Numbered from the stretch's first letter, positions 1 through 28,732 are shown. The stretch: DNA of 32,000 bases from Vitreoscilla stercoraria DSM 513 (GCF_000382305.1 NZ_KB908021.1:134293-166292), one strand, 5' to 3'. Translations and numbers: made by a program. Notes: generated from the letters alone by a model not told the origin.

Positions 1-1004
1 AAGTGGTTGGTTTGGAAGTCAAATCAAATGGCCAAAACCGCAAAATATTCGCCAAGCACGGTGTGGTGATTGCCAGCGGTGGTTTCTCGCATGATAAAGA
101 ACGCCTGAAAAAAATGTATCCACATGTTGCCAGTGGTGGTGAACACTTCTCACCTGTGCCAACAGGCAATACCGGCGATGGTTTGCGTTTGGCTGAAAGT
201 GCGGGAGGTCGTGTGAGCACTGAGTATGCAGACAATTCAGCATGGATGCCTGTATCGCGTGTGCCAATGAAAAATGGAGGCTTTGGCGTGTTTCCACATT
301 TATTGGACCGTTACAAACCCGGCATTATTGGTGTGTTGAAAAATGGTCAGCGTTTTTGCAATGAATCTGAATCTTATCACGATGTCGGTGCGGCTTTGAT
401 GCGGGCGTGTGCGGGTGAAAAAGAAACCGCTATGTGGTTGGTTTGCGATGCCAAAGCCTTGGCGAAATATGGCTTGGGTTATGTGAAGCCTGCACCTTTG
501 CCACATGGCAAATTCATCAAACAAGGTTATTTGTTTAAAGGCGCAACTTTAGAAGCGTTGGCACAAACCATCGGCATGGATGCACAAGGTTTACGCCAAA
601 CAGTTGAAAACTACAATTTACATGCCGTTCATGGTGAAGACCCACAGTTCAATCGGGGTACTACTTCCTTCAATCGCTATTTGGCCGATCCTGAAAACCA
701 GCCCAATCCATGCGTGGCACCTATTTCTCAAGGACCGTTTTATGCGGTGAAAGTGTATATGGGCGATTTGGGTACGTTTAATGGCATTGAAACCACGGCT
801 GTGGGTGAGGTGATGGATGCTGACAACCAAGTGATTGAAGGCTTGTATGCAGTGGGTAATGACCGTAAGAGCGTGATGGGTGGCAATTATCCAGGTGCTG
901 GCATTACATTGGGGCCGATTATGACTTATGGCTATGTCACTGGCAATGTGATTGCCGATAAAGCGCAGATTCAACACTTACAGGACGCTTCTGTTGAAGC
1001 TTAA
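1..1004 (+). CDS. FAD-dependent oxidoreductase, 3-ketosteroid dehydrogenase / fumarate reductase flavoprotein family (C-terminal part, 5' end outside window)
   Basis: The ORF is open from the window edge. The C-terminal motif YMGDLGTFNGIETT...GLYAVGND...YPGAGITLGP is typical of FAD_binding_2 / KstD-like enzymes. Confidence 0.75.
   Translation, partial: VVGLEVKSNGQNRKIFAKHGVVIASGGFSHDKERLKKMYPHVASGGEHFSPVPTGNTGDGLRLAESAGGRVSTEYADNSAWMPVSRVPMKNGGFGVFPHLLDRYKPGIIGVLKNGQRFCNESESYHDVGAALMRACAGEKETAMWLVCDAKALAKYGLGYVKPAPLPHGKFIKQGYLFKGATLEALAQTIGMDAQGLRQTVENYNLHAVHGEDPQFNRGTTSFNRYLADPENQPNPCVAPISQGPFYAVKVYMGDLGTFNGIETTAVGEVMDADNQVIEGLYAVGNDRKSVMGGNYPGAGITLGPIMTYGYVTGNVIADKAQIQHLQDASVEA
978..990 (-). 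repeat. Single reverse copy of the uptake-sequence-like motif (TTACAGGACGCTT) inside coding sequence
   Basis: Exact reverse complement of AAGCGTCCTGTAA, read directly from the sequence. Confidence 0.8.
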
Positions 1005-1031
1005 ATTGGAACCATAAGGAATAAAAAAAAC

Positions 1032-1364
1032 ATGAACGAACAAAAATATCCAGTGGTTGATTTACGCTTTTATCACATTGCACCACGTGGCATGAATGAG
1101 TTTTTAAAACATTTCAATGAATTGGCGATGCCTTTATTGATGAAGCATTTGGGGCAACCTGTTGGATTTTATACCACCACCATCGGTACATTAAACCAAT
1201 TTGTACACATTTGGGAATACGAAAGTTTGGCAGATTATGAGCGCCGTAGCACGGCTCGTGACAGTGATCCTGAGTTTTCAACTTACTTGCAAGCAACAAA
1301 AGGTTTGGTGGTATCACAACACAATCAAATCATTAAAAAAGTGGCAATGAATACCAAAATTTAA
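1032..1364 (+). CDS. NIPSNAP family protein
   Basis: 110 aa. The pattern LRFYHI...FYTTTIGTLNQFVHIWEYESLADYERR resembles the NIPSNAP domain. It sits 27 nt after the upstream stop. Confidence 0.6.
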   Translation: MNEQKYPVVDLRFYHIAPRGMNEFLKHFNELAMPLLMKHLGQPVGFYTTTIGTLNQFVHIWEYESLADYERRSTARDSDPEFSTYLQATKGLVVSQHNQIIKKVAMNTKI

Positions 1365-1399
1365 GCCGCATCTACAAATGGAGAAAAGGAGTAGTAACG

Positions 1400-2764
1400 A
1401 TGAATAATCAGAATGTGATTGATGTCCGTGAGGTCATCAATGCCGAAAAAATCAGTGGGCTACAAAAACTGGTGGTCTTTTTTTGTTGTGCCATCATTGC
1501 CATTGACGGTTTTGATGTGGTGGTCATGGGCTTGTCTGCGCCACAAATCATTCAAGAATGGGGTGTGTCTGCCACAGACATGGGACCGGTATTGAGTGCG
1601 GCTTTATTTGGTTTGGCCATCGGTGCGTTGACTGCAGGACCTTTGTCTGATCGGTTTGGTCGCAAGTGGGTTTTGATTATCAGTGTATTCTTTTTTGGAC
1701 TGATGACATTGGTAACGGCTTTTGCGCAAGATGTGACTCAATTGGTGATTTTCCGCTTTTTAACAGGTTTGGGTTTGGGTGCTGCTGCGCCCAATGCCGC
1801 TACCTTGGCTGCTGAATATGCCCCTGTGCGTCGCAGAGCCTTTTTTGTGACTATCGCTTATGCAGGGTTTTCATTGGGTGCAGCAGGAGGTGGTTTTATT
1901 TCGGCATGGATGATTCCTGAGTTTGGCTGGCGTAGTGTGTTTGTATTGGGTGGCATCTTGCCGTTGGTATTGTTGCCATTCATGATTTTAAAAATGCCTG
2001 AGTCTTTGTCTTTTTTGGTTGCTAAAAAAGGCAATCCTAAAACCATCCGCTCCATTGTCAACCGTATGATTCCCAATACCGCCACAGAAAAACACACCTA
2101 TACTGTTGGACCGATTGCAAGCAAGCAAAAAAGTGCGTTGGGTATTGTGATGTCTAAAGAGTACCGCTTGGGCACTTACATGTTGTGGTTAAGCTATTTC
2201 ACTGCCTTGTTCTTGATTTATTTGTGCAGCAGTTGGCTGCCAACCATCATCAAAATGAATGATTTCACCATTTCACAAGCAGCAATAGTGACATCTATTT
2301 TTCAAATTGGAGGACCTATTGGTAGTTTGTTCTTTGGTTGGGCGATGGATAAGTTCAAACCACATGCCGTTTTGATTAGTGGTATGTTGGTGGGCGCGGC
2401 AGCTACTTATGCATTGGGTCAATTTGGTCACAATTTGGTATTGTTATCTATTTGTGCATGGATTTTGGGCTTTTGTTTCAATGGCGGCTCTGTGGGTATG
2501 TCGGCTTTGGCAACCAATTACTACCCAACCGAAGCGCGTGCTACGGGTGCTAGCTGGATGAATGGTATTGGTCGATTCGGTGCAATTTTAAGTGCATTTG
2601 CTGGTGGTTATATGATTACACAAGGGTATTCATTACAAACCATGTTCACTTTATTGATGATTCCAGCATTGTTGGCAGGTTTGGCCATCTTTATTAAAGG
2701 TGCTAAAGCCAAAGAGGTATCAGTGCCATCTCCTGTGACGGCTCAAACACAAACTGAGGTTTGA
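1400..2764 (+). CDS. MFS transporter, aromatic acid:H+ symporter (AAHS, PcaK/MhpT-like) family
   Basis: 454 aa with about 12 hydrophobic segments and the MFS loop motif GPLSDRFGRKWVL. A strong SD (AAAGGAG) precedes the ATG. Confidence 0.8.
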   Translation: MNNQNVIDVREVINAEKISGLQKLVVFFCCAIIAIDGFDVVVMGLSAPQIIQEWGVSATDMGPVLSAALFGLAIGALTAGPLSDRFGRKWVLIISVFFFGLMTLVTAFAQDVTQLVIFRFLTGLGLGAAAPNAATLAAEYAPVRRRAFFVTIAYAGFSLGAAGGGFISAWMIPEFGWRSVFVLGGILPLVLLPFMILKMPESLSFLVAKKGNPKTIRSIVNRMIPNTATEKHTYTVGPIASKQKSALGIVMSKEYRLGTYMLWLSYFTALFLIYLCSSWLPTIIKMNDFTISQAAIVTSIFQIGGPIGSLFFGWAMDKFKPHAVLISGMLVGAAATYALGQFGHNLVLLSICAWILGFCFNGGSVGMSALATNYYPTEARATGASWMNGIGRFGAILSAFAGGYMITQGYSLQTMFTLLMIPALLAGLAIFIKGAKAKEVSVPSPVTAQTQTEV

Positions 2765-2823: not shown

Positions 2824-2837
2824 AAGCGTCCTGTAAA
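2824..2837 (+). repeat. Single forward copy of the uptake-sequence-like motif AAGCGTCCTGTAAA
   Basis: Exact motif match. No inverted partner nearby. Confidence 0.8.
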
Positions 2838-3099
2838 CATTAAAAGGAGCAATATCGTGGTTTAAAACTGACAAAATGCTTTTTTAAGGATGTAGTCATT
2901 TCTTTTGTAAAGTCAGAATCATGGTAAAAAAAATCGTGTCATGATTCAATATTGATATTGTCTAAGAATTTAGTTTCGATCATGTTGAAGTCTTGCATTG
3001 ACCACACTATGCCAATCGTATGTGAAGTGATTGGATAGCTGCAACATCTGTCTCGTATATTTTTAAGGATGGTAACCATTTCACGATTGGTTCGGCATT

Positions 3100-3121
3100 A
3101 ATGACCGCTTAAGCGGTCATT
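3100..3121. repeat. 22-bp perfect palindrome AATGACCGCTTAAGCGGTCATT
   Basis: Read directly. It lies 70 nt downstream of the minus-strand oxidoreductase stop and has no clean U-tract on either strand. Confidence 0.6.
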
Positions 3122-3191
3122 TGTGAGTCAGATTGTTGATATAAAACCTAGCAGTTTTAAAATAGTAACCCCATGATATAGTGTAACTATC

Positions 3192-4589
3192 TTACTTAAT
3201 GCCACAAAAACCATACACTTGTCGCGCTAACCAAGTCGTTTTATCAGGTTTTTGAGTATGTTCCTTGGCATCTGCAATTTTTAATAATTTGTACATCGTA
3301 TGAATTCCTGTCCAACGCAAAGGCTCAGGTTCCCATTTGGGATTGATGAAATTATTCCAAGGCAAACGATTCAATGCCGTATCTTGTTTCAAAATGCGTG
3401 AACACAAAGTTCTTGCTGCCAAATTGGTTCCTGCTACACCGCTGCCGCCAAAACCATAAACACTGCCTATTTGGGTATTAGAATCATAACTGACGCTTGG
3501 ACACCAATCTCTGGTTAAACCGAATGAACCCCGCCAAGAGTGCTCAATTTTCATTGGAAAATATGGGAACAATTGCGTTAAACGACCATATAAAAAATCT
3601 AAAGTAGGGCGATCCAATTCACCATGACCCACTGTCTGAGAGTTATATTGATAAGGCTTGCCACGACCACCGATGACAATACGATTATCCTCAGTGCGTT
3701 GCGCATAAAAAAACAAATGTGATGCATCACTGAATAATTCACGACCGTGCCAATTGGCTTGTTGCCAAAATGAGTCTGGTAAGATTTCTGTTGCAATGAC
3801 AGAGGAGTTCATTGGCACCACTTTACCAGAGCGCACCAATGCTTCAGTGTATCCTTCAGTACAACACATCACATGGTCGGCCTGAATATGAAAACCAGCC
3901 ACTTGAACATGCTTGGGACTGAAACCGCTCACTGGAGTATTTTCATACATGAATACGCCCAACTGAGACAAGACATTTTTCAAGCCAAATGCCAATTTTG
4001 CAGGTTGAATACGAGCACCTTTGCGATACCATAGACCTGAATCAGCATGGGCAACGTTGATTTTTTCCTTCACTTGTAGCCCTGTGAGCAAAACCATATC
4101 ATCAGTATCAAAGCCTAAATCCAAATCATGCTTGTAAGTTTCACGTAAACGATAACTTTGGGCGCGATTGGTCGACATAGTTAACATTCCGCCTTCATAT
4201 AAATCACAATCAATATCTTCTAGCTGACAAATGTGTTTGACTTCATCCACCGTTCGAGTGATTTCTTTCTGAAACAAACGCACATCATCCAAAGAAGATC
4301 CCGATTTTTGAAATACAGAACTTAAACCCGGTATATGCGATGAAAGCCAACCGCCATTGCGTCCAGATGCTCCATATGCAATTTGATTGGCTTCAAAAAT
4401 AGCAATACTCCATTCCGGCTGGGCTTTTTTCAAATAATATGCCAACCATAAGCCTGTAAAACCACCTCCAATAATGGCAACATCAAATTGACTTTGCCCA
4501 TGCAAAGGTGGCGGTATTTGAGCATCTTGATAATGACCATTGGAAACGGCTGATTTCACCCAAAATGAAATATTATCTTGTTCTAACAT
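3192..4589 (-). CDS. FAD-dependent oxidoreductase, DAO family (PuuB/OrdL-like gamma-glutamylputrescine oxidase type)
   Basis: 465 aa. It has the N-terminal dinucleotide fold DVAIIGGGFTGLWLAYYL, and its length and overall pattern match PuuB/OrdL-like enzymes. Confidence 0.75.
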   Translation of the reverse strand: MLEQDNISFWVKSAVSNGHYQDAQIPPPLHGQSQFDVAIIGGGFTGLWLAYYLKKAQPEWSIAIFEANQIAYGASGRNGGWLSSHIPGLSSVFQKSGSSLDDVRLFQKEITRTVDEVKHICQLEDIDCDLYEGGMLTMSTNRAQSYRLRETYKHDLDLGFDTDDMVLLTGLQVKEKINVAHADSGLWYRKGARIQPAKLAFGLKNVLSQLGVFMYENTPVSGFSPKHVQVAGFHIQADHVMCCTEGYTEALVRSGKVVPMNSSVIATEILPDSFWQQANWHGRELFSDASHLFFYAQRTEDNRIVIGGRGKPYQYNSQTVGHGELDRPTLDFLYGRLTQLFPYFPMKIEHSWRGSFGLTRDWCPSVSYDSNTQIGSVYGFGGSGVAGTNLAARTLCSRILKQDTALNRLPWNNFINPKWEPEPLRWTGIHTMYKLLKIADAKEHTQKPDKTTWLARQVYGFCGIK

Positions 4590-5845: not shown

Positions 5846-5859
5846 ATGCGTCCTGTAAT
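5846..5859 (+). repeat. Single forward copy of the uptake-sequence-like motif (ATGCGTCCTGTAAT)
   Basis: Exact match to the 11-mer core GCGTCCTGTAA. Confidence 0.8.
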
Positions 5860-6202
5860 CTGTTAAATTCTTTTTAGTTTGGGTAAGAGCATACGAGAAT
5901 GATTTGTAAAAAATCAACTAAAAATTTTACTTTTAGTGTTATTTTTTATATCAAAAAAATAATGTATTTTTTATATATATTTATATTTCAATCTTAAATA
6001 TCAGTATGAGCGTTTTTAAAAAATGAGCTTGATTTGAATATGATTGGAATATAAAAAAACCTAATATCATCATTTTTATAATAGATTTTTATTAGAATAA
6101 TAGCCTACGATTTATATCTAAATTACTATGAATATAGATATTGCATATATAAATAATATAATTATTAGTTACTTTTAAAGTTTCTTGGTGAAAAGGTGCT
6201 TT

Positions 6203-6322
6203 ATGGGATTAACAAGTCTAAGTTGTATTGTACTCATGAAGGGCAATGCTAATTCCCGCAAGAATCAAACAGTCATTAATGGCAGCTTGTCATCGTTAGT
6301 TGGCTGCGGCTTTGAGATGTAA
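6203..6322 (+). CDS. Hypothetical 39-aa small ORF (MGLTSLSCIVLMKGNANSRKNQTVINGSLSSLVGCGFEM), or alternatively part of an sRNA
   Basis: An SD-like AAGGT lies 5 nt upstream of the ATG. The ORF sits in the only normal-GC islet of a 775-bp AT-rich spacer. Its stop lies between the arms of the hairpin GGCTGCGG/CCACAGCC (6302-6332). Confidence 0.2.
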   Translation: MGLTSLSCIVLMKGNANSRKNQTVINGSLSSLVGCGFEM

Positions 6323-6509
6323 AACCACAGCCAGTGTTGTTGTATATCGTTCTTAAATTTGGCCATAGTAATAGATATGAGAAAATTCTACTTTTTGTTT
6401 TATTGAAAGTAGGAGAATTATCGTGAAATTAATTTTCTAAATAAGGAGTGTTTTATTAAATCTTAATTTAACATAATGCCAATATGATAAATATCATTTT
6501 AAAAAATAT

Positions 6510-6540
6510 AAACAAAAAAACCGACTATAAAAGTCGGTTA
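6510..6540 (-). terminator. Rho-independent terminator of pyrE
   Basis: Stem AACCGACT / AGTCGGTT, followed on the minus strand by a long T-run. Confidence 0.75.
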
Positions 6541-6553
6541 AAAAACTAAAAAA

Positions 6554-8705: not shown

Positions 8706-8736
8706 AGGCGTCCTGTAAACATTTACAGGACGCCTT
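8706..8736. terminator. Inverted pair of the uptake-sequence-like motif forming a bidirectional terminator hairpin
   Basis: AGGCGTCCTGTAAAcaTTTACAGGACGCCT flanked by A-run and T-run, between convergent genes. Confidence 0.8.
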
Positions 8737-10189: not shown

Positions 10190-10220
10190 AAGCGTCCTGT
10201 AAACATATTACAGGACGCTT
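10190..10220. terminator. Inverted pair of the uptake-sequence-like motif (bidirectional terminator)
   Basis: AAGCGTCCTGTAAAcataTTACAGGACGCTT between convergent genes. Confidence 0.8.
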
Positions 10221-11282: not shown

Positions 11283-12662
11283 ATGCATGATAACAAAACT
11301 TGGTCGGGTCGTTTCAACGAGCCTGTCTCTGAATTGGTGAAAAAATACACGGGTTCTATTGATTTTGACAAACGCTTGGCCACTTGGGACATTCAAGGCT
11401 CTTTGGCACATGCGCAAATGTTGCAAAAAGTAGGCGTTTTGTCTGAGCAAGATTTGGCTGATATTCAGCAAGGCATGGCTGAAATCTTAGAAGACATCCA
11501 AAATGGTCGCATCGAGTGGTCTTTGGATTTAGAAGACGTGCACATGAATATTGAGCGTCGCTTGACCGACAAAATTGGTGACGCGGGCAAACGTTTGCAT
11601 ACAGGCCGCTCACGCAATGACCAAGTGGCAACCGACATTCGTTTGTGGTTGCGCGATGAAATTACTGTGATTCAAGACTTGATTCGTGCTTTGCAAACAT
11701 CTTTGTTAGATTTGGCTGAAGAAAACGTGGATGTGGTGATGCCAGGCTTCACGCATTTACAGGTCGCTCAACCAGTGAGTTTTGGTCATCACATGCTCGC
11801 TTATGTGGAAATGTTAGGTCGCGACTTTGAACGCATGGTCGATTGCCGCAAACGTGTGAACCGCATGCCTTTGGGCGCGGCAGCATTGGCGGGCACCACT
11901 TACCCAATCGATCGCACGATTACAGCTGAATTGTTGGGCTTTGAGCAAATTTGTCAAAACTCATTGGACGCGGTGTCAGATCGTGATTTTGCGATTGAAT
12001 TTACCGCAGCTGCCAGCTTGGTGATGGTGCATTTGTCGCGTTTGAGCGAAGAATTGATTTTGTGGATGAGCCCGCGCGTGGGCTTCATCGACATTGCTGA
12101 CCGTTTCTGTACGGGTTCATCCATCATGCCACAAAAGAAAAACCCAGATGTGCCAGAATTGGTGCGTGGCAAATCAGGCCGTGTAGTAGGTCATTTGATG
12201 GGCATGATAGTATTGATGAAATCGCAACCTTTGGCCTACAACAAAGACAACCAAGAAGACAAAGAGCCTTTGTTTGATACGGTTGACACTTTGGTCGACA
12301 CTTTGCGCATTTACGCTGACATGATGCGCGGTGTGACGGTGAAAGCGGACAACATGCGTGCGGCAGTGATGCAAGGCTTTGCGATGGCCACCGATTTGGC
12401 TGATTACTTGGTGAAAAAAGGCATGCCATTCCGTGACAGCCACGAAGTGGTGGCTTTGGCAGTGCGTTTTGCCGATGGCAAAGGTGTGGATTTGAGCGAA
12501 TTGGCGTTTGAAGAATTGGCACAATTCAGTGATTTGATTGCCGAAGATGTGTTTGAATATTTAACACCAGAAGGCGCTTTGAATGCGCGTGACCATGTGG
12601 GTGGTACGGCACCGAACCAAGTGCGTGCACAAATTGCCCGTTGGCGTGAACTGATGGCTTAA
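11283..12662 (+). CDS. argH: Argininosuccinate lyase
   Basis: 459 aa with [20 protein letters not shown] and the signature [12 protein letters not shown]. Confidence 0.95.
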
Positions 12663-12690: not shown

Positions 12691-12719
12691 AAGCGTCCTG
12701 TAATCTTTACAGGACGCTT
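12691..12719. terminator. Inverted pair of the uptake-sequence-like motif (bidirectional terminator)
   Basis: AAGCGTCCTGTAAtcTTTACAGGACGCTT followed by a T-run, between argH and sixA. Confidence 0.8.
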
Positions 12720-13263: not shown

Positions 13264-13767
13264 ATGAACCCATTGAATATTTGGTTATCATGTCAAGGCT
13301 TTAAGCTTGATGATAACATGACTTATCTGAACACATTATTACCAGCCATTCCTCTCACCCAAGCCTTACAACAGCTGCATGCGGATTTTTCAGTGCAAGT
13401 GTTGCATTTGGGTGTGGATGATGTGTGGCATGATGAACAAGATTGCATTGGCACCCACCGTGGTTTTAGCCGCGAAGTGTGTTTGTCTTTACAAAATCAT
13501 GCTGTGGTGTGGGCGCGCAGTGTCTGTGCTCACGATGCGCATCCGTGGCATGAAATTGTGCAATGTGGCACGCAGCCATTAGGCATGCGCTTATACCAAT
13601 TGCCGCTTAAGCGCACTGAATTTGAATATGCTTATTTATCGCCTGAGCATCCAGCCAATCCCAGCAATCAAACCATCGTCTCACGCCGTTCGTGTTTTTA
13701 TTTACAGGACGGCTCACCTTTATTATTGACCGAAAGTTTTTTACCTTCTTTGAAAAATTATGAATGA
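13264..13767 (+). CDS. ubiC: Chorismate pyruvate-lyase
   Basis: The C-terminal [22 protein letters not shown] matches E. coli UbiC [20 protein letters not shown]. It overlaps and precedes ubiA. The start is uncertain (13264 or 13318). Confidence 0.7.
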
Positions 13768-19763: not shown

Positions 19764-19793
19764 AAGCGTCCTGTAAATATTTACAGGACGCTT
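19764..19793. terminator. Inverted pair of the uptake-sequence-like motif (terminator of rluB)
   Basis: AAGCGTCCTGTAAAtaTTTACAGGACGCTT followed by TTTATTT. Confidence 0.8.
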
Positions 19794-19932: not shown

Positions 19933-21204
19933 ATGCGTCATGAAACCGCTGCTTTACATGCAGGTTATGAAATCGATCCAACGACCAAAGCCGTAGCAGT
20001 TCCGATTTACCAAACCACCAGTTATGCTTTTGACAATACCCAACATGGCGCAGATTTATTCAATTTGAATGTCGCGGGCAATATTTATACCCGCATCATG
20101 AATCCGACCACTGCGGTTTTAGAAGCGCGTTTGGCGCAATTGGAAGGCGGCATTGCGGCTTTGTGTGTGGCCTCAGGCATGGCAGCAATCACTTATGCGG
20201 TACAAACTTTGGTCAGCGCAGGCGACAACATCATCGCCACCAAAACCTTATACGGTGGCACTTACAATTTGTTTGCGCATACTTTGCCACACCAAGGCGT
20301 GGAAGTTCGTTTTGTCGATCCTAACCGTCCTGAAGACATCGCAGCATTGACCGATGCCAAAACCAAATTGGTATATTGCGAAAGCATTGGCAATCCTGCC
20401 ATCAATGTCGTGGACATTCCTGCTTTTGCTGATGCGGCACATGCACAAGGCTTGCCATTGGTGGTGGACAATACCGTTGCCACGCCATTGTTGTGTCCTG
20501 CTTTGGCATTGGGTGCGGACATTGTGGTGGAATCGTTGACCAAGTATATTGGTGGTCATGGTAACAGTATTGGTGGTGCGATCATTGATGGCGGCAAATT
20601 CGATTGGGCGGCGCATGCTGAGCGTTTTCCACAATTGACCACGCCTGATGCGTCGTATCATGGCGTCAATTACAGCGAGCATTTTGGTGCAGCAGCGTTT
20701 ATTGCTCGTGCGCGTGTGGTGCCGCTGCGCAATATGGGTGCGGCTATCAGCCCGATGAATACATTTTTGATTTTACAAGGTTTGGAAACTTTGGCTTTGC
20801 GCATGGAACGCCATTGTGACAATGCTTTGAAAGTGGCTCAATTCTTACAAAACCATGAGCAAGTGGCGTGGGTGAATTATCCGGGTTTGGATAACAGTCC
20901 TTACAAAGCTTTGATTGAGCGTGATTTTGGCGGTAAAGCGTCGGGCTTGCTCAGTTTTGGTTTGAAAGATGGTCGTGAAGCTGGTGCACGTTTCATTGAT
21001 GCTTTGCAATTGTTCACCCGTTTGGTCAATATTGGTGATGCGAAATCTTTGGCGTGTCATCCTGCCACCACCACACACCGCCAATTGAGCGATGAAGAGT
21101 TACAGGCCGCTGGCGTGAGTGCCGATTTGGTGCGTTTGAGTGTGGGTATTGAGCACATTGAGGATTTGCTGGCGGATTTAGAGCAGGCTTTGGCGGCGGT
21201 TTAG
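19933..21204 (+). CDS. metY: O-acetylhomoserine aminocarboxypropyltransferase (sulfhydrylase), PLP-dependent
   Basis: MRHETAALHAGYE start with the PLP lysine context ESLTKYIGGHG. I trimmed the start to the ATG at 19933, which has the SD GGAGA. Confidence 0.85.
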   Translation: MRHETAALHAGYEIDPTTKAVAVPIYQTTSYAFDNTQHGADLFNLNVAGNIYTRIMNPTTAVLEARLAQLEGGIAALCVASGMAAITYAVQTLVSAGDNIIATKTLYGGTYNLFAHTLPHQGVEVRFVDPNRPEDIAALTDAKTKLVYCESIGNPAINVVDIPAFADAAHAQGLPLVVDNTVATPLLCPALALGADIVVESLTKYIGGHGNSIGGAIIDGGKFDWAAHAERFPQLTTPDASYHGVNYSEHFGAAAFIARARVVPLRNMGAAISPMNTFLILQGLETLALRMERHCDNALKVAQFLQNHEQVAWVNYPGLDNSPYKALIERDFGGKASGLLSFGLKDGREAGARFIDALQLFTRLVNIGDAKSLACHPATTTHRQLSDEELQAAGVSADLVRLSVGIEHIEDLLADLEQALAAV

Positions 21205-21471: not shown

Positions 21472-21500
21472 AAGCGTCCTGTAACATTTACAGGACGCTT
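21472..21500. terminator. Inverted pair of the uptake-sequence-like motif (bidirectional terminator)
   Basis: AAGCGTCCTGTAAcaTTTACAGGACGCTT between convergent genes. Confidence 0.8.
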
Positions 21501-21515: not shown

Positions 21516-22637
21516 TTATATCGTTGTCACTTGTATGTCTTTGCGCACCAACACGCCTACTGTTTCGTAATGCTGCGTGGCTGGAAACAAATCAAACAAA
21601 TCCACTTGCACCAATTCATATTCATCCAAACAAGTCACCATATCACGAGCAAAACTGGTCGGCTCACAAGCGATGAAAATCACTGCTTTGGGTTGGAATG
21701 CGGCGACAAAGTCTTTTAAGTTTTTCAAGCCTGAACGTGGTGGGTCGATAATTAAGCACGTTGGTTGCTGCAAATGTGTGGGAATAGCGGCCTGTAAACG
21801 TGTTAAAGCATCTTTGGCATACAGGTTTTGTGAAACAAATGTTTGAGTCTCGGTATTTTCAGGAGTATTGTCGCCATATTGATCCACGACCAAAGTTTGT
21901 TTGCCCAAAGGCAAGCTCAAATTGCCATTGCCGCCAAACAAATCATAAATGACCGCATCTTGTGGCAAATATTGCGTTGTCAAATGTGCCAACCATGTGG
22001 TGAGATAATGGTTCATGTGTGGGAAAACTTGCGTAAAACCACCATTGGCATAAGGACGGTTGACGCTGATGTGTATTTCATCGTCACGCCAATACAATTC
22101 AATGTGACCGCGTACAGGTTCTTGTTCGACCAATTGTAGCCATGCTTGGTTTTCATACAAACCTAAAACCGCTTCACGCACTTGTGCTTGCATCAATTGG
22201 CATTGAGAAACGGCAAACGGTTCATAATTAACATCCATCAGACCCAAAATTTGTTTGTCTTTTTGGTAATGCAATTGCACGCGGTTGCGATAATGAAAAC
22301 GCTGTGGTGCAGCATGTACGGTAATATCCACAGGTGGGAATTTGCGTAGGTGGCGTTGTAAGGCTTGTTGCTTGAAATTCAATTCGGTTGGATAGTCCAC
22401 ATGTTGGTAATCACAACCACCACATTGTGCATAATGAGGACAAGGCACATCTTGGCGTTTGGGTGAAGCTTGAATGATGTCGATGACATGGGCAAAGTGG
22501 ATGTTTTTTTTGCTGCGATAGACTTTGGCCTCTACTATTTCTTCAGGTAAGGTTTTGGCAATAAATGTAATTTGTCCATCGTCTTTGGCCACGCCTTGCC
22601 CCATGGTGTCCAAATCTATGATTTTGTAGTGCGTCAT
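21516..22637 (-). CDS. rlmD: 23S rRNA (uracil-5)-methyltransferase, RumA/RlmD family
   Basis: 373 aa with a short TRAM-like N-terminus, the Fe-S cysteine cluster CPHYAQCGGCDYQH, the SAM-binding region DLFGGNGN and the catalytic IACEPTS. Confidence 0.75.
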   Translation of the reverse strand: MTHYKIIDLDTMGQGVAKDDGQITFIAKTLPEEIVEAKVYRSKKNIHFAHVIDIIQASPKRQDVPCPHYAQCGGCDYQHVDYPTELNFKQQALQRHLRKFPPVDITVHAAPQRFHYRNRVQLHYQKDKQILGLMDVNYEPFAVSQCQLMQAQVREAVLGLYENQAWLQLVEQEPVRGHIELYWRDDEIHISVNRPYANGGFTQVFPHMNHYLTTWLAHLTTQYLPQDAVIYDLFGGNGNLSLPLGKQTLVVDQYGDNTPENTETQTFVSQNLYAKDALTRLQAAIPTHLQQPTCLIIDPPRSGLKNLKDFVAAFQPKAVIFIACEPTSFARDMVTCLDEYELVQVDLFDLFPATQHYETVGVLVRKDIQVTTI

Positions 22638-22791: not shown

Positions 22792-24012
22792 ATGGCATTG
22801 ACAGAATCTTGGTTAAAATCCCACCACCAAAAACCACATGACAAAGTCACAGAAGTGGCAGACAGGGACGGTATGAGTGTGCGGGTATCGCCTAAAGGGA
22901 AAATTGTGTTTCAATTGCGCTTTCGCTGGCGTGGGAAAGCGCAACGTTTGGATTTAGGCGTTTATCCTGACATGTCATTGAAACAAGCACGCTTACACAC
23001 TTGGGAGATGCGGGAGCAAATCGCTCAAGGCATAGACCCCAAGCAAGGCTTACAGGCCGCTTCTGATGATGATTTGCCTGCGGTTTTCGAGCGTTGGTAT
23101 CAGGCTTATTGTGTTGTAAACAAGAAAAACCATGCCGATATCAAACGCTCTTTTGAAATTCATGTCTTTCCGCATTTTCAACGTCAATGTTTTGGTGACA
23201 TCAGTTTGCAGCAATGGATGTTGTTATTGGACGATTTGGCTTTGCACAAAGAATCGATTGCCGCGCGGATTTTGTCCAATGCGCAACAATTGTACAAATG
23301 GGCGATGAAACGTGAATATGCCAAGCACAATGTCTTATTGGGTATTTCTGCCAAACATGATTTGCAAGTGAAAAAACGCAGTGGTGATAGGGTATTGAGC
23401 CAGACTGAAATTCAATGGCTGTGGCATGCTTTGAGTCATTCGCGCATGATGCTGAAAAACCAATTGTTTGTGAAACTGTGTTTGTTGTATGGTTGTCGCA
23501 ATGGTGAATTGCGCTTGGCTAAAAAAAGCGATTTTGATTTTCACACCAAAGTCTGGACTGTTCCACAAGAAAATCACAAAACAGGTGCTATCAGCGGTAA
23601 AGCTTTGTTGCGTCCCATAACCTCGCATACCGAGGCTTTATTGCATTTGGCCATGGATTTGAATGACAGTGAATTTTTGTTTTGTAATGCAGGTGGCGTA
23701 GAAGCGATGTCACGTTCTGTGCCTTTGTCTTTACCAACCAATATCATGCAATGGTTGAAATCTCAGCACCAAATAGACATGCCATATTGGTCTATGCATG
23801 ACTTGCGCCGTACCGCCCGCACCAATTTTAGCCGTTTGACCACGTTTGAAGTGGCTGAAATCATGTTAGGTCATGCATTACCTAAAATACAGGCCACTTA
23901 CGATCATTATGATTATTTGAGTGAGCAAACGGTGGCGTATGAAAAGTGGCATGAATGTGTTTTGGGATGGGTTAGCCATCATGATTTAGAAAAGCTGGCG
24001 TCCATCTTTTGA
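22792..24012 (+). CDS. int: Tyrosine-type site-specific integrase, P4/CP4-57/SXT-like with an N-terminal arm-binding (DUF4102-type) domain
   Basis: 406 aa. N-terminus DRDGMSVRVSPKGKIVFQLRFRWRGKAQRLDLGVYPDMSLKQAR, catalytic region HDLRRTARTNF...LGHALP...TYDHYDY. Confidence 0.9.
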   Translation: MALTESWLKSHHQKPHDKVTEVADRDGMSVRVSPKGKIVFQLRFRWRGKAQRLDLGVYPDMSLKQARLHTWEMREQIAQGIDPKQGLQAASDDDLPAVFERWYQAYCVVNKKNHADIKRSFEIHVFPHFQRQCFGDISLQQWMLLLDDLALHKESIAARILSNAQQLYKWAMKREYAKHNVLLGISAKHDLQVKKRSGDRVLSQTEIQWLWHALSHSRMMLKNQLFVKLCLLYGCRNGELRLAKKSDFDFHTKVWTVPQENHKTGAISGKALLRPITSHTEALLHLAMDLNDSEFLFCNAGGVEAMSRSVPLSLPTNIMQWLKSQHQIDMPYWSMHDLRRTARTNFSRLTTFEVAEIMLGHALPKIQATYDHYDYLSEQTVAYEKWHECVLGWVSHHDLEKLASIF

Positions 24013-24177: not shown

Positions 24178-24207
24178 AAGCGTCCTGTAAATGTTTACAG
24201 GACGCTT
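24178..24207. terminator. Inverted pair of the uptake-sequence-like motif inside the integrase island
   Basis: AAGCGTCCTGTAAAtgTTTACAGGACGCTT followed by TTATTTTT. Confidence 0.8.
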
Positions 24208-24379: not shown

Positions 24380-24431
24380 GATGAACCGCCCCGGGTTTCT
24401 CGGAGACCTAACTTTCTGAGAGAATATCCGA

Positions 24432-24737
24432 ATGAAAAATACTTACTCACCTGAAATCCGTCAACGAGCGGTTCGCCTTTATCAAGAACAGCGCAGTGAA
24501 TATCCAACTCAGTGGGCCGCCACAGTGTCCATTGCCAGCAAGTTTGGCTGTACACCAGAAACACTGCGCACTTGGATTAAGAAGTTTGAAGCTGATCTGG
24601 CCGATAATGGGGCAGCGGCTGATCAAGCTCAACGCATTAAACAGCTCGAAAGAGACAATAAAGAGCTGCAACGCGCCAATGAAATTCTGCGCAAAGCTGC
24701 CGCTTTTTTCGCCCAGGCGGAGCTCGACCGCAAATAG
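24432..24737 (+). CDS. IS3-family transposase OrfA (HTH)
   Basis: 101 aa. The HTH region is followed by a leucine-zipper-like segment, LERDNKELQRANEILRKAAAFFAQ. Confidence 0.9.
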   Translation: MKNTYSPEIRQRAVRLYQEQRSEYPTQWAATVSIASKFGCTPETLRTWIKKFEADLADNGAAADQAQRIKQLERDNKELQRANEILRKAAAFFAQAELDRK

Positions 24738-25642
24738 GCGATTTGTTGGATTTTATTCATGAACACAAAATGGTGTATGGGGTCGAGTCAATTTGCCGAG
24801 TATTGCCGATTGCGCCATCCACTTATTATCGACATGCGCAAAGATTGAAACAGCCTGAATTGCGAGCCAAACGGTGCGTGTCGGATAAATGTTTATTGGC
24901 TCAAATCAACACTGTTTGGGAAGATAGTTTGCAAGTTTATGGTTACCGCAAAGTCTGGCACCAATTACAACGTGAAGGCGTTCAAGTTGCCCGCTGTACA
25001 GTTGCCAGACTGATGCGCAAACACAGCATACAAGGGGTTTGGCGGGGTAAAGGCAAACGCACTACAGTGTGTGATCCAGAGTTGCAACGGGCCGATGATT
25101 TGGTGAATCGGCAGTTTACAGCCAGTCGGCCAAATCAATTGTGGGTAGCCGATTTCACCTATGTGTCTACCCACCAGGGCTTTGTGTATACGGCTTTCAT
25201 CATCGATGTGTTTGCTCGGCGCATTGTTGGTTGGAAGGTGGCAAAACGGATGGATACCGACTTGGTGATGGATGCATTGGAGCAGGCTTTGCATGCCAGA
25301 AACAAGCCCAAACACCTCATTCACCACAGTGATCGAGGCAGCCAATATCTGTCGATTCGTTACACCGAACGTTTACAGGCCGCTCAAGTGAAGGCTTCGG
25401 TCGGAACAACTGGTGATTCGTATGACAATGCTTTGGCTGAAACGGTGAATGGTTTGTACAAAACTGAGGTCATCCATCATCAAAAACCATGGAGGCGGAT
25501 GATTGATGTTGAATTAGCAACACTAAACTGGGTGGATTGGTTCAATCATCGACGTTTGTTAAGCTCGATAGGTTATGTTCCACCAGCCGAATTTGAAATG
25601 GCGTATTATCGCCAATTGGAAGAGTCAGCCAAAGTGGCATGA
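24704..25642 (+). CDS. IS3-family transposase OrfB (DDE), expressed as OrfAB by -1 frameshift
   Basis: The slippery heptamer T_TTT_TTC sits at 24704-24710 in the orfA frame. The -1 frame is open from 24683. DDE motifs are WVADFTY, HSDRGSQY and DNALAE. Confidence 0.85.
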   Translation, partial: FFRPGGARPQIGDLLDFIHEHKMVYGVESICRVLPIAPSTYYRHAQRLKQPELRAKRCVSDKCLLAQINTVWEDSLQVYGYRKVWHQLQREGVQVARCTVARLMRKHSIQGVWRGKGKRTTVCDPELQRADDLVNRQFTASRPNQLWVADFTYVSTHQGFVYTAFIIDVFARRIVGWKVAKRMDTDLVMDALEQALHARNKPKHLIHHSDRGSQYLSIRYTERLQAAQVKASVGTTGDSYDNALAETVNGLYKTEVIHHQKPWRRMIDVELATLNWVDWFNHRRLLSSIGYVPPAEFEMAYYRQLEESAKVA

Positions 25643-25776
25643 CTCAAGATAAACTGTCTCCGAAATACTTGGGTCGGTTCATTCAACTTGGCATCATCGC
25701 TTTAAATCTTTATTGAATGAATTTCCTGATATTGATATTGACAGTTGGAAACTATGGAGTTCTTAAAATGAGAAAG

Positions 25777-25961: not shown

Positions 25962-26002
25962 ATTCTTACAATGGATTCACTTTTAATTGAAAGGTGAAAC
26001 CG

Positions 26003-26598: not shown

Positions 26599-26599
26599 G

Positions 26600-26866
26600 A
26601 TGGTGATTTTACAATTCGTCATCTTGGCCGTGATGTTTGTTTTTTCTGCGTGCGTGGTGGCCAAAGAACGTTTTTGTTTGAATTGCCAACATGAAGTGGT
26701 GCGTTTGCTGTTTCATGCATCGTTTGGTACTTATGCCATGGCCCGAATCTATTGTTTGTTAAGATTTGATCCCTTGGTGCCGTGGTGGCTAATAGGAATA
26801 GAGGTTATATTAGCCATAATCATTTGTCTGCGTTTTTTGATAAAGTTATTCAAAGAGGAGAATTGA
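26600..26866 (+). CDS. Hypothetical 88-aa membrane protein (2-3 TM) with a charged C-terminus, holin/antiholin-like
   Basis: Strong SD GGAGG lies 8 nt upstream of the ATG at 26600, which is 1 nt after the upstream stop. Hydrophobic N- and C-terminal segments end in KLFKEEN. Confidence 0.55.
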   Translation: MVILQFVILAVMFVFSACVVAKERFCLNCQHEVVRLLFHASFGTYAMARIYCLLRFDPLVPWWLIGIEVILAIIICLRFLIKLFKEEN

Positions 26867-26981
26867 ATAATTAAGGGATATCTTCATTTAATAACAATAC
26901 AGCAATGAAAAACTCAGTACAAATGAATCTTGATGCACTTTAGTGGTAGTGCTAAAATGTTTTTATTCTCAAGTTACAAAA

Positions 26982-27017
26982 GAAGCCCTGTTTTAGATGC
27001 AGGGCTTCCGTATTTTT
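26982..27017 (+). terminator. Rho-independent terminator after the three-gene cassette
   Basis: Perfect 9-bp stem GAAGCCCTG / CAGGGCTTC followed by CGTATTTTT. Confidence 0.7.
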
Positions 27018-27080
27018 AAAAATTAGCCAAATTTTTTATTTGTACATAATTGTGTACATATCACTATCAAAGACAGCAAG

Positions 27081-28682
27081 ATGATTGAAAAAATCCAAGA
27101 AGAATCAAAGCGAAGAAGGTCATTCGCAATCATTTCACATCCCGATGCGGGTAAAACCACTTTAACAGAAAAATTATTGCTGTTCTCGGGTGCTATCCAA
27201 TCAGCAGGCACGGTCAAAGGTAAGAAGTCTGGCAAGTTTGCCACTTCAGACTGGATGGAAATTGAGAAACAACGTGGCATTTCGGTGGCATCATCAGTGA
27301 TGCAATTTGATTACCGTGAACACGTTGTCAATTTGCTCGACACTCCCGGACACCAAGACTTCTCAGAAGATACTTATCGAGTATTAACAGCCGTAGACAG
27401 CGCTTTGATGGTGATTGATGCTGCCAAAGGTGTGGAAGAACAAACCATCAAATTGTTGAATGTTTGTCGTATGCGCAATACGCCGATTGTGACATTCATG
27501 AACAAATATGACCGTGAAGTACGTGATTCTTTAGAATTGTTGGATGAGGTTGAAAGCGTCCTGAAAATTCGCTGTGCACCTGTGACTTGGCCAATTGGTA
27601 TGGGCAAAAGTTTCCGTGGTGTGTACCACATGCTCAACGACGAAGTGTATTTGTTTGAAGCGGGCGCACAAAAACTCAGTCATGAGTTTGAAGTGATTCA
27701 AGGTTTGGACAACCCTCGCTTGGACGAATTGTTCCCTATGGAAATGGAACAATTGCGCATGGAAATTGAATTGGTACAGGCCGCTTCCAATGAGTTCAAT
27801 TTGGAAGAATTCTTGGCAGGCGAATTAACACCGGTATTCTTCGGCTCAGCAATTAACAATTTTGGTGTGCGTGAAATCTTGGATGCCTTGATTGATTGGG
27901 CACCAGCTCCGCATGCACGTGCAGCCATTGAACGCGTGGTAGAGCCAGACGAGGCAAAATTCACAGGTTTCGTGTTCAAAATTCAAGCCAATATGGACCC
28001 GAAACACCGTGACCGCATTGCATTTTTGCGTGTGTGTTCAGGCCAGTTTACCCGTGGCATGAAAATGAAACACATCCGTATTAACCGTGATATTGCAGCG
28101 TCTAGCGTGGTGACATTCATGTCACATGATCGCGAATTGGTCGAAGAAGCTTATTCAGGTGACATCATCGGCATTCCAAACCATGGCAATATTCAAATTG
28201 GTGACAGCTTCTCTGAAGGTGAAATTTTGACCTACACCGGCATCCCATTTTTCGCGCCTGAAATGTTCCGCAGTGTCCGTATTAAAAACCCTCTGAAGAT
28301 GAAGCAATTGCAAAAAGGTTTGCAACAATTGGGTGAAGAAGGTGCGGTACAGGTTTTCAAACCACACAATGGCGGTGATTTGATTTTGGGTGCGGTGGGT
28401 GTGCTCCAGTTTGAAGTGGTTGCCGCTCGTTTGGCGGGTGAGTATGGTGTGGATGCGGTATTTGATTCTGCCAGCATTTGGTCGGCTCGTTGGGTGTCTT
28501 GTGACGATAAGAAAAAACTGGCTGAGTTTGAACGCGCCAATGTGTTGAATTTGTCTACCGATGCTGGTGGTAATTTGGCTTACTTGGCACCGAATCGGGT
28601 CAATTTGAATTTGACCCAAGAACGTTGGCCTGACATCACATTCCATGAAACCCGTGAATTGAACCATACATTCAATGATTGA
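27081..28682 (+). CDS. prfC: Peptide chain release factor 3
   Basis: 533 aa with [27 protein letters not shown] and NKYD GTPase motifs across a full-length RF3 pattern. Confidence 0.95.
27138..27147 (+). repeat. att-like core CATCCCGATG, copy 2 (His20-Pro21-Asp22 of prfC)
   Basis: Exact direct repeat of 24104-24113. Confidence 0.45.
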
Positions 28683-28702
28683 TTGGAACTGAAACAGTTC
28701 TC

Positions 28703-28732
28703 AAGCGTCCTGTAAATGTTTACAGGACGCTT
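28703..28732. terminator. Inverted pair of the uptake-sequence-like motif (bidirectional terminator, prfC/sstT)
   Basis: AAGCGTCCTGTAAAtgTTTACAGGACGCTT between convergent genes. Confidence 0.8.

What the first reader, a model, noticed from the sequence alone, without database searches (positions are those of the whole stretch)
978..28732. Over-represented 11-14-mer AAGCGTCCTGTAAA arranged as inverted-pair terminators: a candidate DNA uptake sequence dialect
Seen in sequence:
- The 11-mer GCGTCCTGTAA occurs 17 times. Nine copies are forward, with the G at 2826, 5848, 8708, 10192, 12693, 19766, 21474, 24180 and 28705. Eight copies are reverse.
- For one fixed 11-mer in 2 x 32 kb with equal base use, the chance expectation is about 0.015.
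- Fourteen copies form 7 inverted pairs with 2-4 nt between the arms (8706-8736, 10190-10220, 12691-12719, 19764-19793, 21472-21500, 24178-24207, 28703-28732). Each pair sits just after a stop codon, mostly between convergent genes.
- Three copies are single (978, 2824, 5846).
- One-mismatch variants sit inside genes: GCGGCCTGTAAA at 21787, and its reverse complement at 23050 (int) and 25372 (IS3 orfB). CCGTCCTGTAAA occurs at 13701 (reverse) and AAGCGTCCTGAAAA at 27554.
- The two AT-rich tracts and the phage/IS21 end have no copies.

Established knowledge: Neisseriaceae DUS and Pasteurellaceae USS occur roughly once per 1-2 kb and frequently as inverted pairs that double as terminators. All published DUS dialects share a CTG core, for example AAGCAGCCTGCA and AGGCAGCCTGAA.

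Inference: this motif (xxGCxxCCTGxA format) is a DUS-type signal, but it is not one of the eight published dialects as I remember them.
Basis: partly seen in the sequence, partly recalled or inferred. Interest (0 to 1): 0.75.

Follow-up and report, generated by a model that had tools for sequence, protein, structure and literature searches.

The report
Vitreoscilla DNA uptake sequence, already described
The repeated 12-14-mer is real and is the DNA uptake sequence of Vitreoscilla stercoraria, which marks the cell's own DNA for import and, as inverted pairs, ends transcripts; a 2025 preprint already describes this motif in this species.

Summary
GCGTCCTGTAA occurs 17 times where about 0 are expected. 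Fourteen copies form seven perfect hairpins (-20 to -26 kcal/mol), each a short distance past a stop codon.

The window is Vitreoscilla stercoraria, family Neisseriaceae. The motif has the AA prefix, the CTG core at +6 to +8 and A at +10. It occurs paired at terminators and singly inside genes. It is scarce in mobile DNA: 2 copies in 21.9 kb against 22 in 34.2 kb of core DNA. No larger repeat unit surrounds it.

It is not new. bioRxiv 10.1101/2025.10.24.684340 names GCGTCCTGTA "vit3DUS" in V. stercoraria (1,291 copies of CGTCCTGTAA) and GCGGCCTGTA "vitDUS" in V. massiliensis.

One nuance may go beyond the preprint. The G-at-+4 variant AGCGGCCTGTA is the second most enriched word in the window. 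All six copies lie inside genes, and five encode [L/V]QAA with rare codons. By contrast, 16 of the 17 exact copies are intergenic.

I could not locate comP in this genome, so that point rests on the preprint. No transformation data exist.

The parts
977..990 (-). Single DUS (AAGCGTCCTGTAAG) inside the 3' end of the FAD_binding_2 gene. The coding strand reads TTA CAG GAC GCT, which is L-Q-D-A.
2824..2856 (+). Single DUS (AAGCGTCCTGTAAA, 2824-2837), 62 nt after the MFS gene stop, followed by an eroded inverted partner.
   Evidence: family D1 (69% identity to an intact pair)
5846..5859 (+). Single intergenic DUS (ATGCGTCCTGTAAT) at the edge of the AT-rich tract.
8706..8735 (.). Inverted DUS pair between convergent genes (hyp173 and SpoU methylase). 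The A7...T4 flanks suggest a bidirectional terminator hairpin.
   Evidence: (-25.8 and -25.6 kcal/mol, z about -8.4)
10190..10220 (.). Inverted DUS pair between convergent cytochrome b561 and LytS-type histidine kinase genes.
   Evidence: terminator-like; -24.2 and -25.4 kcal/mol
12691..12719 (.). Inverted DUS pair 31 nt after the argH stop, followed by T6. A pair sits at the same place in a relative with 85% nucleotide identity in argH, although the flanks do not align.
19764..19793 (.). Inverted DUS pair 28 nt after the RluB-like gene stop, between co-directional genes.
   Evidence: (terminator-like on both strands)
21472..21500 (.). Inverted DUS pair 18 nt from the stop of the RNA U5-methyltransferase gene, which is convergent with metY.
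24178..24207 (.). Inverted DUS pair 168 nt after the integrase gene and just before the left end of the IS3 element (24381). It is also present in strain C1.
28703..28732 (.). Inverted DUS pair between convergent prfC and the SDF symporter gene.
11600..11610 (-). G-at-+4 variant AGCGGCCTGTA inside argH, in the frame ACA GGC CGC (T-G-R).
   Evidence: frame worked out from the gene start at 11283
21101..21111 (-). G-at-+4 variant inside metY. It encodes LQAA as TTA CAG GCC GCT.
21786..21796 (+). G-at-+4 variant inside the RNA methyltransferase gene (a minus-strand gene). It encodes LQAA. The identical 12-mer sits at the orthologous codons of a relative that uses the G4 dialect.
23051..23061 (-). 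G-at-+4 variant inside the integrase gene. It encodes LQAA.
25374..25384 (-). G-at-+4 variant inside IS3 orfB. It encodes LQAA.
27775..27785 (-). G-at-+4 variant inside prfC. It encodes VQAA as GTA CAG GCC GCT.
27554..27567 (+). A-at-+9 variant AAGCGTCCTGAAAA inside prfC. Taken together, the non-G4 one-mismatch variants (also at 11758, 13703 and 15826) are not clearly above chance.

Best explanation
The motif is the DNA uptake sequence (DUS) of Vitreoscilla stercoraria. Its core is GCGTCCTGTA and its extended form is AAGCGTCCTGTAAA. A 2025 preprint has already named it vit3DUS.

The mechanism below is inferred by homology with Neisseria, Kingella and Eikenella:
1. The type IV minor pilin ComP binds double-stranded DNA that carries the motif.
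2. Pilus retraction pulls the DNA through the PilQ secretin.
3. One strand enters the cytoplasm and recombines through RecA.
4. Because fragments carrying the motif are imported preferentially, copies accumulate across the core genome wherever they are tolerated.

The most permissive places are just past stop codons. There, two inverted copies form a 13-16 bp hairpin, and the GCTT end of the second arm runs into a T-rich tail. The pair therefore also serves as an intrinsic terminator, often bidirectional between convergent genes.

Inside genes the motif sits mainly on the template strand, because that orientation has no stop codon in any frame. There it appears mostly as the G-at-+4 variant, which codes Leu/Val-Gln-Ala-Ala.

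Shown here: the over-representation, the anatomy, the hairpins, the host, the core-versus-mobile bias and the codon bias. Inferred: ComP dependence, the effect on uptake, and actual termination.
For: - **Abundance.** 17 exact copies against 0 expected. The word family is the top k-mer of the window.
- **Conservation.** It is confined to positions -2 to about +12, with A at -2 in 17 of 17 copies and A at -1 in 14 of 17. No longer repeat unit surrounds it.
- **Hairpins.** All seven pairs fold at -20 to -26 kcal/mol, with z-scores of -4.9 to -8.5 against shuffles. Four are picked up by the simple terminator scan. Pairs lie 18-44 nt from a stop codon, except the one after the integrase gene.
- **Host.** The window matches V. 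stercoraria CP091512.1 with 3 mismatches in 14.9 kb, and the encoded methyltransferase is named as from V. stercoraria. The species belongs to the Neisseriaceae.
- **Prior description.** The identical motif is reported genome-wide in this species: CGTCCTGTAA 1,291 copies, observed/expected 49, and the genome is stated to encode ComP.
- **Similarity to known dialects.** CTG at +6 to +8 and A at +10, 9 of 12 positions shared with AA-king3DUS, and no copy of any other dialect or of a USS in the window.
- **Core versus mobile DNA.** 22 copies in 34.2 kb of core DNA against 2 in 21.9 kb of prophage, IS and island DNA; Poisson P = 9e-5.
- **Copies inside genes.** Single copies in coding sequences show selection on the word itself, not on the hairpin.
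- **Conservation across species.** An uncultured relative (73% amino-acid identity in the methyltransferase, 85% nucleotide identity in argH) has the same dialect and a pair at the orthologous site after argH, although the flanks do not align.
- **Control.** In 80 metagenomic comP loci, the most frequent 10-mer of the flanking 6-12 kb was a known DUS dialect whenever the locus was long enough, at densities comparable to this window.
Against: - There is no experimental evidence that V. stercoraria is naturally transformable or that this motif enhances uptake. I found no report, and the preprint is purely bioinformatic.
- I could not independently find comP (Pfam PF16732) in this genome. No hit from two profile searches, one exhaustive representative search or one metagenome scan could be tied to Vitreoscilla.
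- 14 of the 17 exact copies are in hairpins, so within this window alone a terminator-palindrome family would explain most copies.
Confidence: 0.85

Rival explanations
1. It is a family of intrinsic-terminator or REP-like palindromes with no role in DNA uptake. On this view the word is abundant only because one successful hairpin sequence has been copied to many 3' ends, for example by a REP-associated tyrosine transposase or by gene conversion.
For: 14 of the 17 exact copies form hairpins next to stop codons. 16 of the 17 are intergenic.
Against: - The unit of conservation is the 12-14-mer half-site, not the palindrome. Loops and flanks vary.
- Unpaired copies and the G4 variant occur inside coding sequences, where rare codons are recruited to spell the word.
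- The motif aligns position by position with experimentally validated DUS dialects in the same family.
- There is no GTAG-type REP head.
- The depletion in mobile DNA is what uptake bias predicts.
Confidence: 0.08
2. It is the recognition site of some other sequence-specific DNA or RNA protein. Examples would be a site-specific ssDNA nuclease of the Ssn type that acts on abundant Neisseria repeats, a nucleoid protein or a regulator. Uptake would be incidental.
For: Neisseriaceae carry other abundant short repeats with dedicated binding proteins; a paper on the Ssn nuclease family appears in the literature search. Nothing in the window excludes a second reader of the motif.
Against: The motif has the DUS architecture and the CTG core. 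No such protein is encoded next to the copies. The distribution (terminators plus permissive coding frames, absent from mobile DNA) matches DUS behaviour described.
Confidence: 0.04
3. It is the terminal part of a miniature mobile element (MITE or Correia-like) that has spread through the genome.
For: The copies are inverted repeats scattered in intergenic DNA.
Against: The arms are only 1-3 nt apart and have no internal sequence. There are no target-site duplications, and no similarity extends beyond about 36 nt, which includes the T-tail. Copies also occur in frame inside genes.
Confidence: 0.01

Closest known systems
vit3DUS of Vitreoscilla stercoraria (bioRxiv 10.1101/2025.10.24.684340)
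   Same: It is identical: 10-mer GCGTCCTGTA, 12-mer AGCGTCCTGTAA, the same species, and the same density (0.49 per kb genome-wide against 0.56 per kb here). The preprint also reports inverted pairs in terminators.
   Different: Nothing differs in the motif itself. The preprint does not, in the text I could read, describe the G4 variant being partitioned into coding sequences. Its dialect labels in the reading-frame analysis also look swapped: QDA can only be spelled by the T4 motif.
vitDUS of Vitreoscilla massiliensis (GCGGCCTGTA)
   Same: It shares 11 of 12 positions, the AA prefix and the TGTAA tail. It is the dominant word in V. massiliensis locus L004 (9 copies in 8 kb) and in metagenomic relative L012. 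It is also the second most enriched word in this window.
   Different: It has G instead of T at +4. In V. stercoraria it is confined to coding sequences (6 of 6 here, 7 of 7 with the flank), whereas in V. massiliensis it also builds the terminator pairs.
AA-king3DUS of Kingella kingae and K. denitrificans (AAGCAGCCTGCA)
   Same: It shares 9 of 12 positions, including the AA prefix, GC at +1/+2, CCTG at +5 to +8 and A at +10. It was shown experimentally to favour transformation in K. denitrificans.
   Different: It differs at +3, +4 and +9. No transformation data exist for Vitreoscilla.
Dual kingDUS/simDUS of Simonsiella muelleri
   Same: Two dialects that differ by one nucleotide coexist in one genome. 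Frye et al. suggested that this widens the amino acids that intragenic DUS can encode.
   Different: In S. muelleri the two occur in about equal numbers and differ at +3. Here the ratio in the window is about 3:1, the difference is at +4, and the two are split between intergenic DNA and coding sequence.
Pasteurellaceae USS (AAGTGCGGT / ACAAGCGGT)
   Same: It has the same biological logic: an abundant self-marking uptake signal, often in inverted pairs at terminators.
   Different: The sequence is unrelated, the family and the receptor differ, and there are 0 copies in the window.

Membership tests
Neisseriaceae DUS | The host belongs to the family Neisseriaceae | tested here: met
   The window matches V. 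stercoraria CP091512.1 / GCA_022870945. P0121 is 100% identical and is named as from V. stercoraria. The lineage is Neisseriales; Neisseriaceae.
Neisseriaceae DUS | A 10-12-nt word is hyper-abundant, at roughly one copy per 1-2 kb across the genome | tested here: met
   0.56 copies per kb in the window, and the top k-mer there. The same holds in about 24 kb of extra flanks in two strains. Genome-wide there are 1,291 copies with observed/expected 49, according to the preprint.
Neisseriaceae DUS | CTG core at +6 to +8, A at +10, and a semi-conserved dinucleotide at -2/-1, alignable with known dialects | tested here: met
   GCGTCCTGTA aligns with 9 of 12 positions of AA-king3DUS. A is present at -2 in 17 of 17 copies and at -1 in 14 of 17. 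The rule is taken from Frye et al. 2013.
Neisseriaceae DUS | Occurs as non-overlapping inverted pairs at transcript ends and also as single copies, including inside genes | tested here: met
   There are 7 pairs with strong hairpins and 3 singles. Intragenic exact copies are at 979 in the window and at 3118 and 5868 in L007.
Neisseriaceae DUS | Enriched in the core genome and depleted in recently acquired DNA | tested here: met
   22 copies in 34.2 kb of core DNA against 2 in 21.9 kb of prophage, IS and island DNA; P = 9e-5. The sample is small, about 56 kb.
Neisseriaceae DUS | A cognate ComP minor pilin (Pfam PF16732) is encoded in the same genome | tested here: inconclusive
   It is not in the roughly 80 kb of this genome that I could read. 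No hit from the profile searches, the exhaustive representative search or the metagenome scan could be tied to Vitreoscilla. The preprint states that the genome encodes ComP.
Neisseriaceae DUS | The motif increases DNA uptake or transformation in the host | not testable with these tools
   No published assay was found.
REP / RAYT-associated palindromes | An imperfect palindrome of 20-40 nt as the conserved unit, strictly extragenic, with a conserved GTAG-type head | tested here: not met
   The conserved unit is the 12-14-nt half-site. Copies lie inside coding sequences and there is no GTAG head.
MITE / Correia-like element | Terminal inverted repeats flank an internal segment, with target-site duplication and conservation over tens to hundreds of nt | tested here: not met
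   The arms are 1-3 nt apart and no similarity extends further.
Pasteurellaceae USS | A 9-nt core, AAGTGCGGT or ACAAGCGGT, in a Pasteurellaceae host | tested here: not met
   There are 0 copies and the host is in the Neisseriaceae.

The most novel reading that the evidence does not exclude
V. stercoraria may maintain two DUS variants in different genomic compartments. T at +4 builds the terminator pairs. G at +4, which is the main dialect of V. massiliensis, is actively kept inside genes, where it spells [L/V]-Q-A-A or T-G-R.

That would mean one of three things:
- its receptor accepts G or T at +4;
- it has two receptors;
- there is ongoing gene flow from lineages that use the G4 dialect.

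In any of these cases, the genus would show a dialect switch that coding constraint has left incomplete.
Probability: 0.35. Interest if true: 0.4.

Novelty: already known. Interest (0 to 1): 0.2.

Why it matters
- **For the scan.** The first-stage reader correctly recognised a DUS dialect from raw sequence alone.
- **For annotation.** The motif is a practical marker in this genome. It flags native versus imported DNA: the filamentous prophage remnant, IS21 and the toxin-antitoxin island have none. It also marks transcript ends.
- **For the field.** It adds little. The dialect, its host and its terminator association are already in a 2025 preprint.
- **What is still open.** There is no experimental proof of transformation in Vitreoscilla. 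It is also unknown whether the G4 variant kept in coding sequences is functional, which bears on how DUS dialects and ComP specificity co-evolve.

Tried and rejected
1. **Species range.** I scanned genome contigs for the inverted pair. That spent the only scan, so I got no species survey and no access to the rest of the genome.
2. **ComP from memory.** The sequence I recalled turned out to be PilX and was discarded. Real ComP sequences came from Table S1 of PMC12061091.
3. **ComP searches.**
   - The seven-species profile returned only Neisseria, Kingella and Eikenella-type hits in the 120 listed.
   - The exhaustive representative search gave 18 proteins with E-values of 1e-30 or better. Cluster look-ups named Kingella, N. 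weaveri, Snodgrassella and Crenobacter, but not Vitreoscilla.
   - A profile of the basal representatives gave 44 hits, none from Vitreoscilla.
   - The hosts of the two unnamed representatives use ATGCCGTCTGCA and AAGCTGCCTGAA, so they are not Vitreoscilla.
   - A metagenome scan returned only loci carrying other, known dialects, and none carries the Vitreoscilla motifs.
   - A local HMM search of all loci I held found nothing.
4. **V. massiliensis orthologues.** I tried to reach them through the RNA methyltransferase. That gene has no close Neisseriaceae homologue beyond three metagenomic relatives; the next hits, at about 50% identity, include several named Bacteriovorax or Bdellovibrionales. 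Two of the metagenomic relatives nevertheless proved useful.
5. **Earlier publication.** I checked whether the 2024 Neisseria leonii paper had listed the motif. It is not in the supplementary text that is held.
6. **Other readings.** MITE, REP and USS readings were rejected, as set out in the membership test.

Full report
**1.

GCGTCCTGTAA occurs 17 times, 9 on the + strand and 8 on the - strand, at exactly the reported coordinates. None of 100 dinucleotide-preserving shuffles gave a match. With up to two mismatches the 14-mer AAGCGTCCTGTAAA has 25 matches against 0.16 expected. An unbiased strand-collapsed k-mer count makes this word family the most frequent 8-, 10-, 11-, 12- and 14-mer of the window.

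Fourteen copies form seven inverted pairs. RNA folding gives perfect 13-16 bp stems of -20 to -26 kcal/mol on either strand, with z-scores of -4.9 to -8.5 against shuffles. Four of the pairs are also picked up by the simple terminator scan.

I annotated the genes with Pfam. Five pairs lie between convergent genes. Each pair lies 18-44 nt from the nearest stop codon, except the one 168 nt after the integrase gene.

Conservation runs from position -2 to about +12: A at -2 in 17 of 17 copies, A at -1 in 14 of 17, and A at +12 in 12 of 17. Loops and outer flanks vary, and no longer repeat unit exists. The single copy at 2824 has an eroded inverted partner.

**2. Whose genome this is**

- The RF3 protein encoded in the window is found, identical in sequence, on CP091512.1 (GCA_022870945, 2,631,213 bp) and on CP019644.2.
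- The window matches CP091512.1 with 3 mismatches in 14.9 kb. All three lie inside IS3 orfB.
- GCA_022870945 is listed as Vitreoscilla stercoraria in PMC11436785. CP019644 is Vitreoscilla sp. C1.
- The RNA methyltransferase of the window is 100% identical to a protein that NCBI names as from V. stercoraria.
- NCBI taxonomy places the species in the Neisseriaceae.
- Logan assemblies of three sequencing runs are 99.8-100% identical to the window.

**3. What the motif is**

A full-text search for the word found bioRxiv 10.1101/2025.10.24.684340, posted in October 2025. That preprint reports:
- in V. stercoraria SAG 1488-6, CGTCCTGTAA at 1,291 copies (observed/expected 49) and AGCGTCCTGT at 1,234 copies;
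- the 12-mer AGCGTCCTGTAA as a new DUS dialect, with the 10-mer GCGTCCTGTA named vit3DUS;
- the one-nucleotide variant GCGGCCTGTA, named vitDUS, in V. massiliensis SN6;
- that both genomes encode ComP.

The window density of 0.56 per kb agrees with the genome-wide 0.49 per kb, so the motif is not a local peculiarity.

The motif obeys the rule that Frye et al. 2013 found in all dialects, namely CTG at +6 to +8 and A at +10; they showed the CTG core to be functionally essential. It shares 9 of 12 positions with AA-king3DUS. No other dialect and no USS occurs in the window.

**4. Further DUS behaviour tested here**

*Core versus mobile DNA.* I combined the window with flanks from V. stercoraria and strain C1. 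Core segments carry 22 copies (T4 plus G4) in 34.2 kb. The filamentous-prophage DNA, IS21, the resolvase/toxin-antitoxin island and the C1-specific phage island carry 2 copies in 21.9 kb, where 14 would be expected (Poisson P = 9e-5).

*Conservation across species-level divergence.* A Logan contig (L011) has 44% GC, 73% amino-acid identity in the methyltransferase and 85% nucleotide identity in argH. It uses the same T4 dialect and has an inverted pair directly after argH, as the window does, although the surrounding intergenic DNA does not align.

*Control.* In 80 metagenomic loci around comP homologues, the most frequent 10-mer of the 6-12 kb flank was a known dialect whenever the locus was long enough (king3DUS, kingDUS, eikDUS, AT/AG-DUS, mucDUS). 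The densities were comparable to this window. The top-k-mer signature seen here is therefore the signature of genuine DUS genomes.

**5. A detail that may go beyond the preprint**

The second most enriched word of the window is AGCGGCCTGTA, the V. massiliensis dialect. It has 6 copies against 0.01 expected.

- All six lie inside genes: argH, metY, the methyltransferase, the integrase, IS3 orfB and prfC. All six have the motif on the template strand.
- By contrast, 16 of the 17 exact T4 copies are intergenic.
- Five of the six G4 copies encode [L/V]-Q-A-A as TTA/GTA CAG GCC GCT.
- CAG is only 17% of Gln codons and GCC only 27% of Ala codons in these genes. Yet 5 of 9 QAA tripeptides, and 5 of 5 [L/V]QAA, are spelled this way, against about 5% expected.
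- The sixth window copy is in the T-G-R frame (ACA GGC CGC), by my hand calculation from the gene coordinates. In that frame T4 and G4 are synonymous. A seventh copy in the upstream flank of strain C1 appears to use the same frame (for its position).
- At the methyltransferase site, a relative that uses the G4 dialect (L012, 50% GC) has the identical 12-mer at the orthologous codons, although neighbouring synonymous sites differ. The T4-dialect relative L011 encodes the same LQAA as TTG CAA GCA GCC.
- V. massiliensis locus L004 shows the mirror image: nine G4 copies, including terminator pairs, plus one T4 pair. That locus was ascertained through its T4 pair.

The template-strand orientation bias has a simple cause. 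TTACAGGACGC has no stop codon in any frame, whereas the forward word contains TAA.

My reading, which is inference: Asp is rarely tolerated where Ala is, so coding constraint forces the G4 spelling inside genes. Its maintenance at sites where synonymous positions are otherwise saturated argues that G4 still has uptake activity in V. stercoraria, or that it is replenished by exchange with G4-dialect lineages. Frye et al. made a similar argument for the two dialects of S. muelleri and described "peregrine" DUS. In N. meningitidis a transversion at +4 cuts transformation to 5%, so tolerance at +4 cannot be assumed.

The sample is about 56 kb, so this needs a whole-genome count.

**6. What I could not establish**

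I could not independently locate comP in V. stercoraria.
- My recalled ComP sequence was in fact PilX.
- With true ComP sequences from PMC12061091 Table S1 I ran two profile searches, one exhaustive representative search, cluster look-ups and a metagenome scan. The named or traceable hits were other Neisseriaceae; none could be tied to Vitreoscilla.
- The roughly 80 kb of this genome that I hold contains no ComP-like ORF.

ComP presence therefore rests on the preprint's statement. I found no report of natural transformation in Vitreoscilla.

**7. Verdict**

- Rival readings fail on anatomy. For a terminator or REP family, MITE or USS, the problem is that the conserved unit is the half-site, it occurs in frame inside genes, it has no internal segment, and it aligns with validated dialects.
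- The finding is already known: the same motif, species and terminator association are described in a 2025 preprint.
- The residual open points are experimental proof of uptake and the status of the G4 variant in coding sequences.
- Interest is low.

Noticed in passing
window 24381-25682: An IS3-family element with 27-nt terminal inverted repeats (81% complementary), orfA at 24432-24737, orfB at 24743-25642, and an ALIL frameshift pseudoknot (Rfam RF01497, 80.9 bits) at 24701-24817. The only 3 mismatches between the window and CP091512.1 lie in its orfB (24964, 24991, 25010), which suggests a multi-copy IS or a different assembly. Strain C1 has different content at this spot.
   Followed up: partly
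window 30475-32000; L001 12903-19800; L002 14700-16500: A filamentous-prophage remnant. The Zot-like gene (30860-31705) is 281 aa here. Strain C1 has a 360-aa Zot within a full prophage (Rep_trans, coat, TspB, DUF2523, Zot). In V. stercoraria the rest is replaced by an IS21 element (IstA/IstB), followed by resolvases and toxin-antitoxin genes including HipBA. The whole region carries no DUS.
   Followed up: partly
window 21516-22637 (- strand): This class I SAM-dependent RNA U5-methyltransferase has only three close relatives, all metagenomic (73-79% identity). Its next homologues, at about 50% identity, include several named Bacteriovorax or Bdellovibrionales rather than other Neisseriaceae. 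That suggests an old horizontal acquisition or a patchy family. It nevertheless carries a G4 DUS and sits next to the integrase gene.
   Followed up: partly
window 5860-6550 and 29990-30470: Two AT-rich intergenic tracts. The 1-kb windows that contain them have 33% and 27% GC, against about 43% elsewhere. They have no ORF of 80 aa or more, no Rfam hit at gathering score, and no DUS. I did not determine their function (promoter or regulatory region, or foreign remnant).
   Followed up: no
window 30837-30877: A perfect 19-bp AT-rich inverted repeat with a 3-nt loop (CCTACAAATAAAGAATAAT...ATTATTCTTTATTTGTAGG), between orf117 and the Zot-like gene. It may be a phage terminator or a regulatory site.
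   Followed up: no
L013-L015 (Logan SRR35188745, SRR19906188, SRR19906121), comP at 10001-10522 in L013 and L014 and at 6402-6923 in L015: An uncultured Neisseriaceae-like organism (42% GC) with a 173-aa ComP (PF16732). It carries ATGCCGTCTGCA at about 1 copy per kb (23 copies of GCAGACGGCA in 20 kb). This is the aniDUS core with an AT prefix, at high density.
   Followed up: partly
L016 (Logan SRR32406233), comP at 3149-3604: Another uncultured ComP host (42.5% GC). Its top word is AAGCTGCCTGAA, 4 copies in 4.8 kb, with 5 copies of the overlapping GCTGCCTGAAAA. This is a simDUS core with an AA prefix instead of AG.
   Followed up: no
bioRxiv 10.1101/2025.10.24.684340, Results and Discussion: The preprint's labels are inconsistent. 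It assigns vitDUS = GCGGCCTGTA (V. massiliensis) and vit3DUS = GCGTCCTGTA (V. stercoraria), yet reports vitDUS as dominated by frame QDA and vit3DUS by QAA. QDA can only be spelled by the T4 word. The Figure 1 panel letters also disagree between the legend and the text.
   Followed up: partly
L007 3600-9965 (strain C1, upstream of the window) and window 3-1364: A tandem series of FAD_binding_2 flavoprotein genes, two of them each followed by a NIPSNAP-domain gene, then an MFS transporter gene. Some flavoprotein genes are split into fragments in some assemblies, which suggests pseudogenes or frameshifts.
   Followed up: no
L005 920-949 (Eggerthellaceae MAG) and L006 1226-1251 (Runella limosa): Single occurrences of the same inverted pair in unrelated genomes. 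Neither locus shows further enrichment of the word. They are most likely chance palindromes from a scan of 596 Gb.
   Followed up: yes
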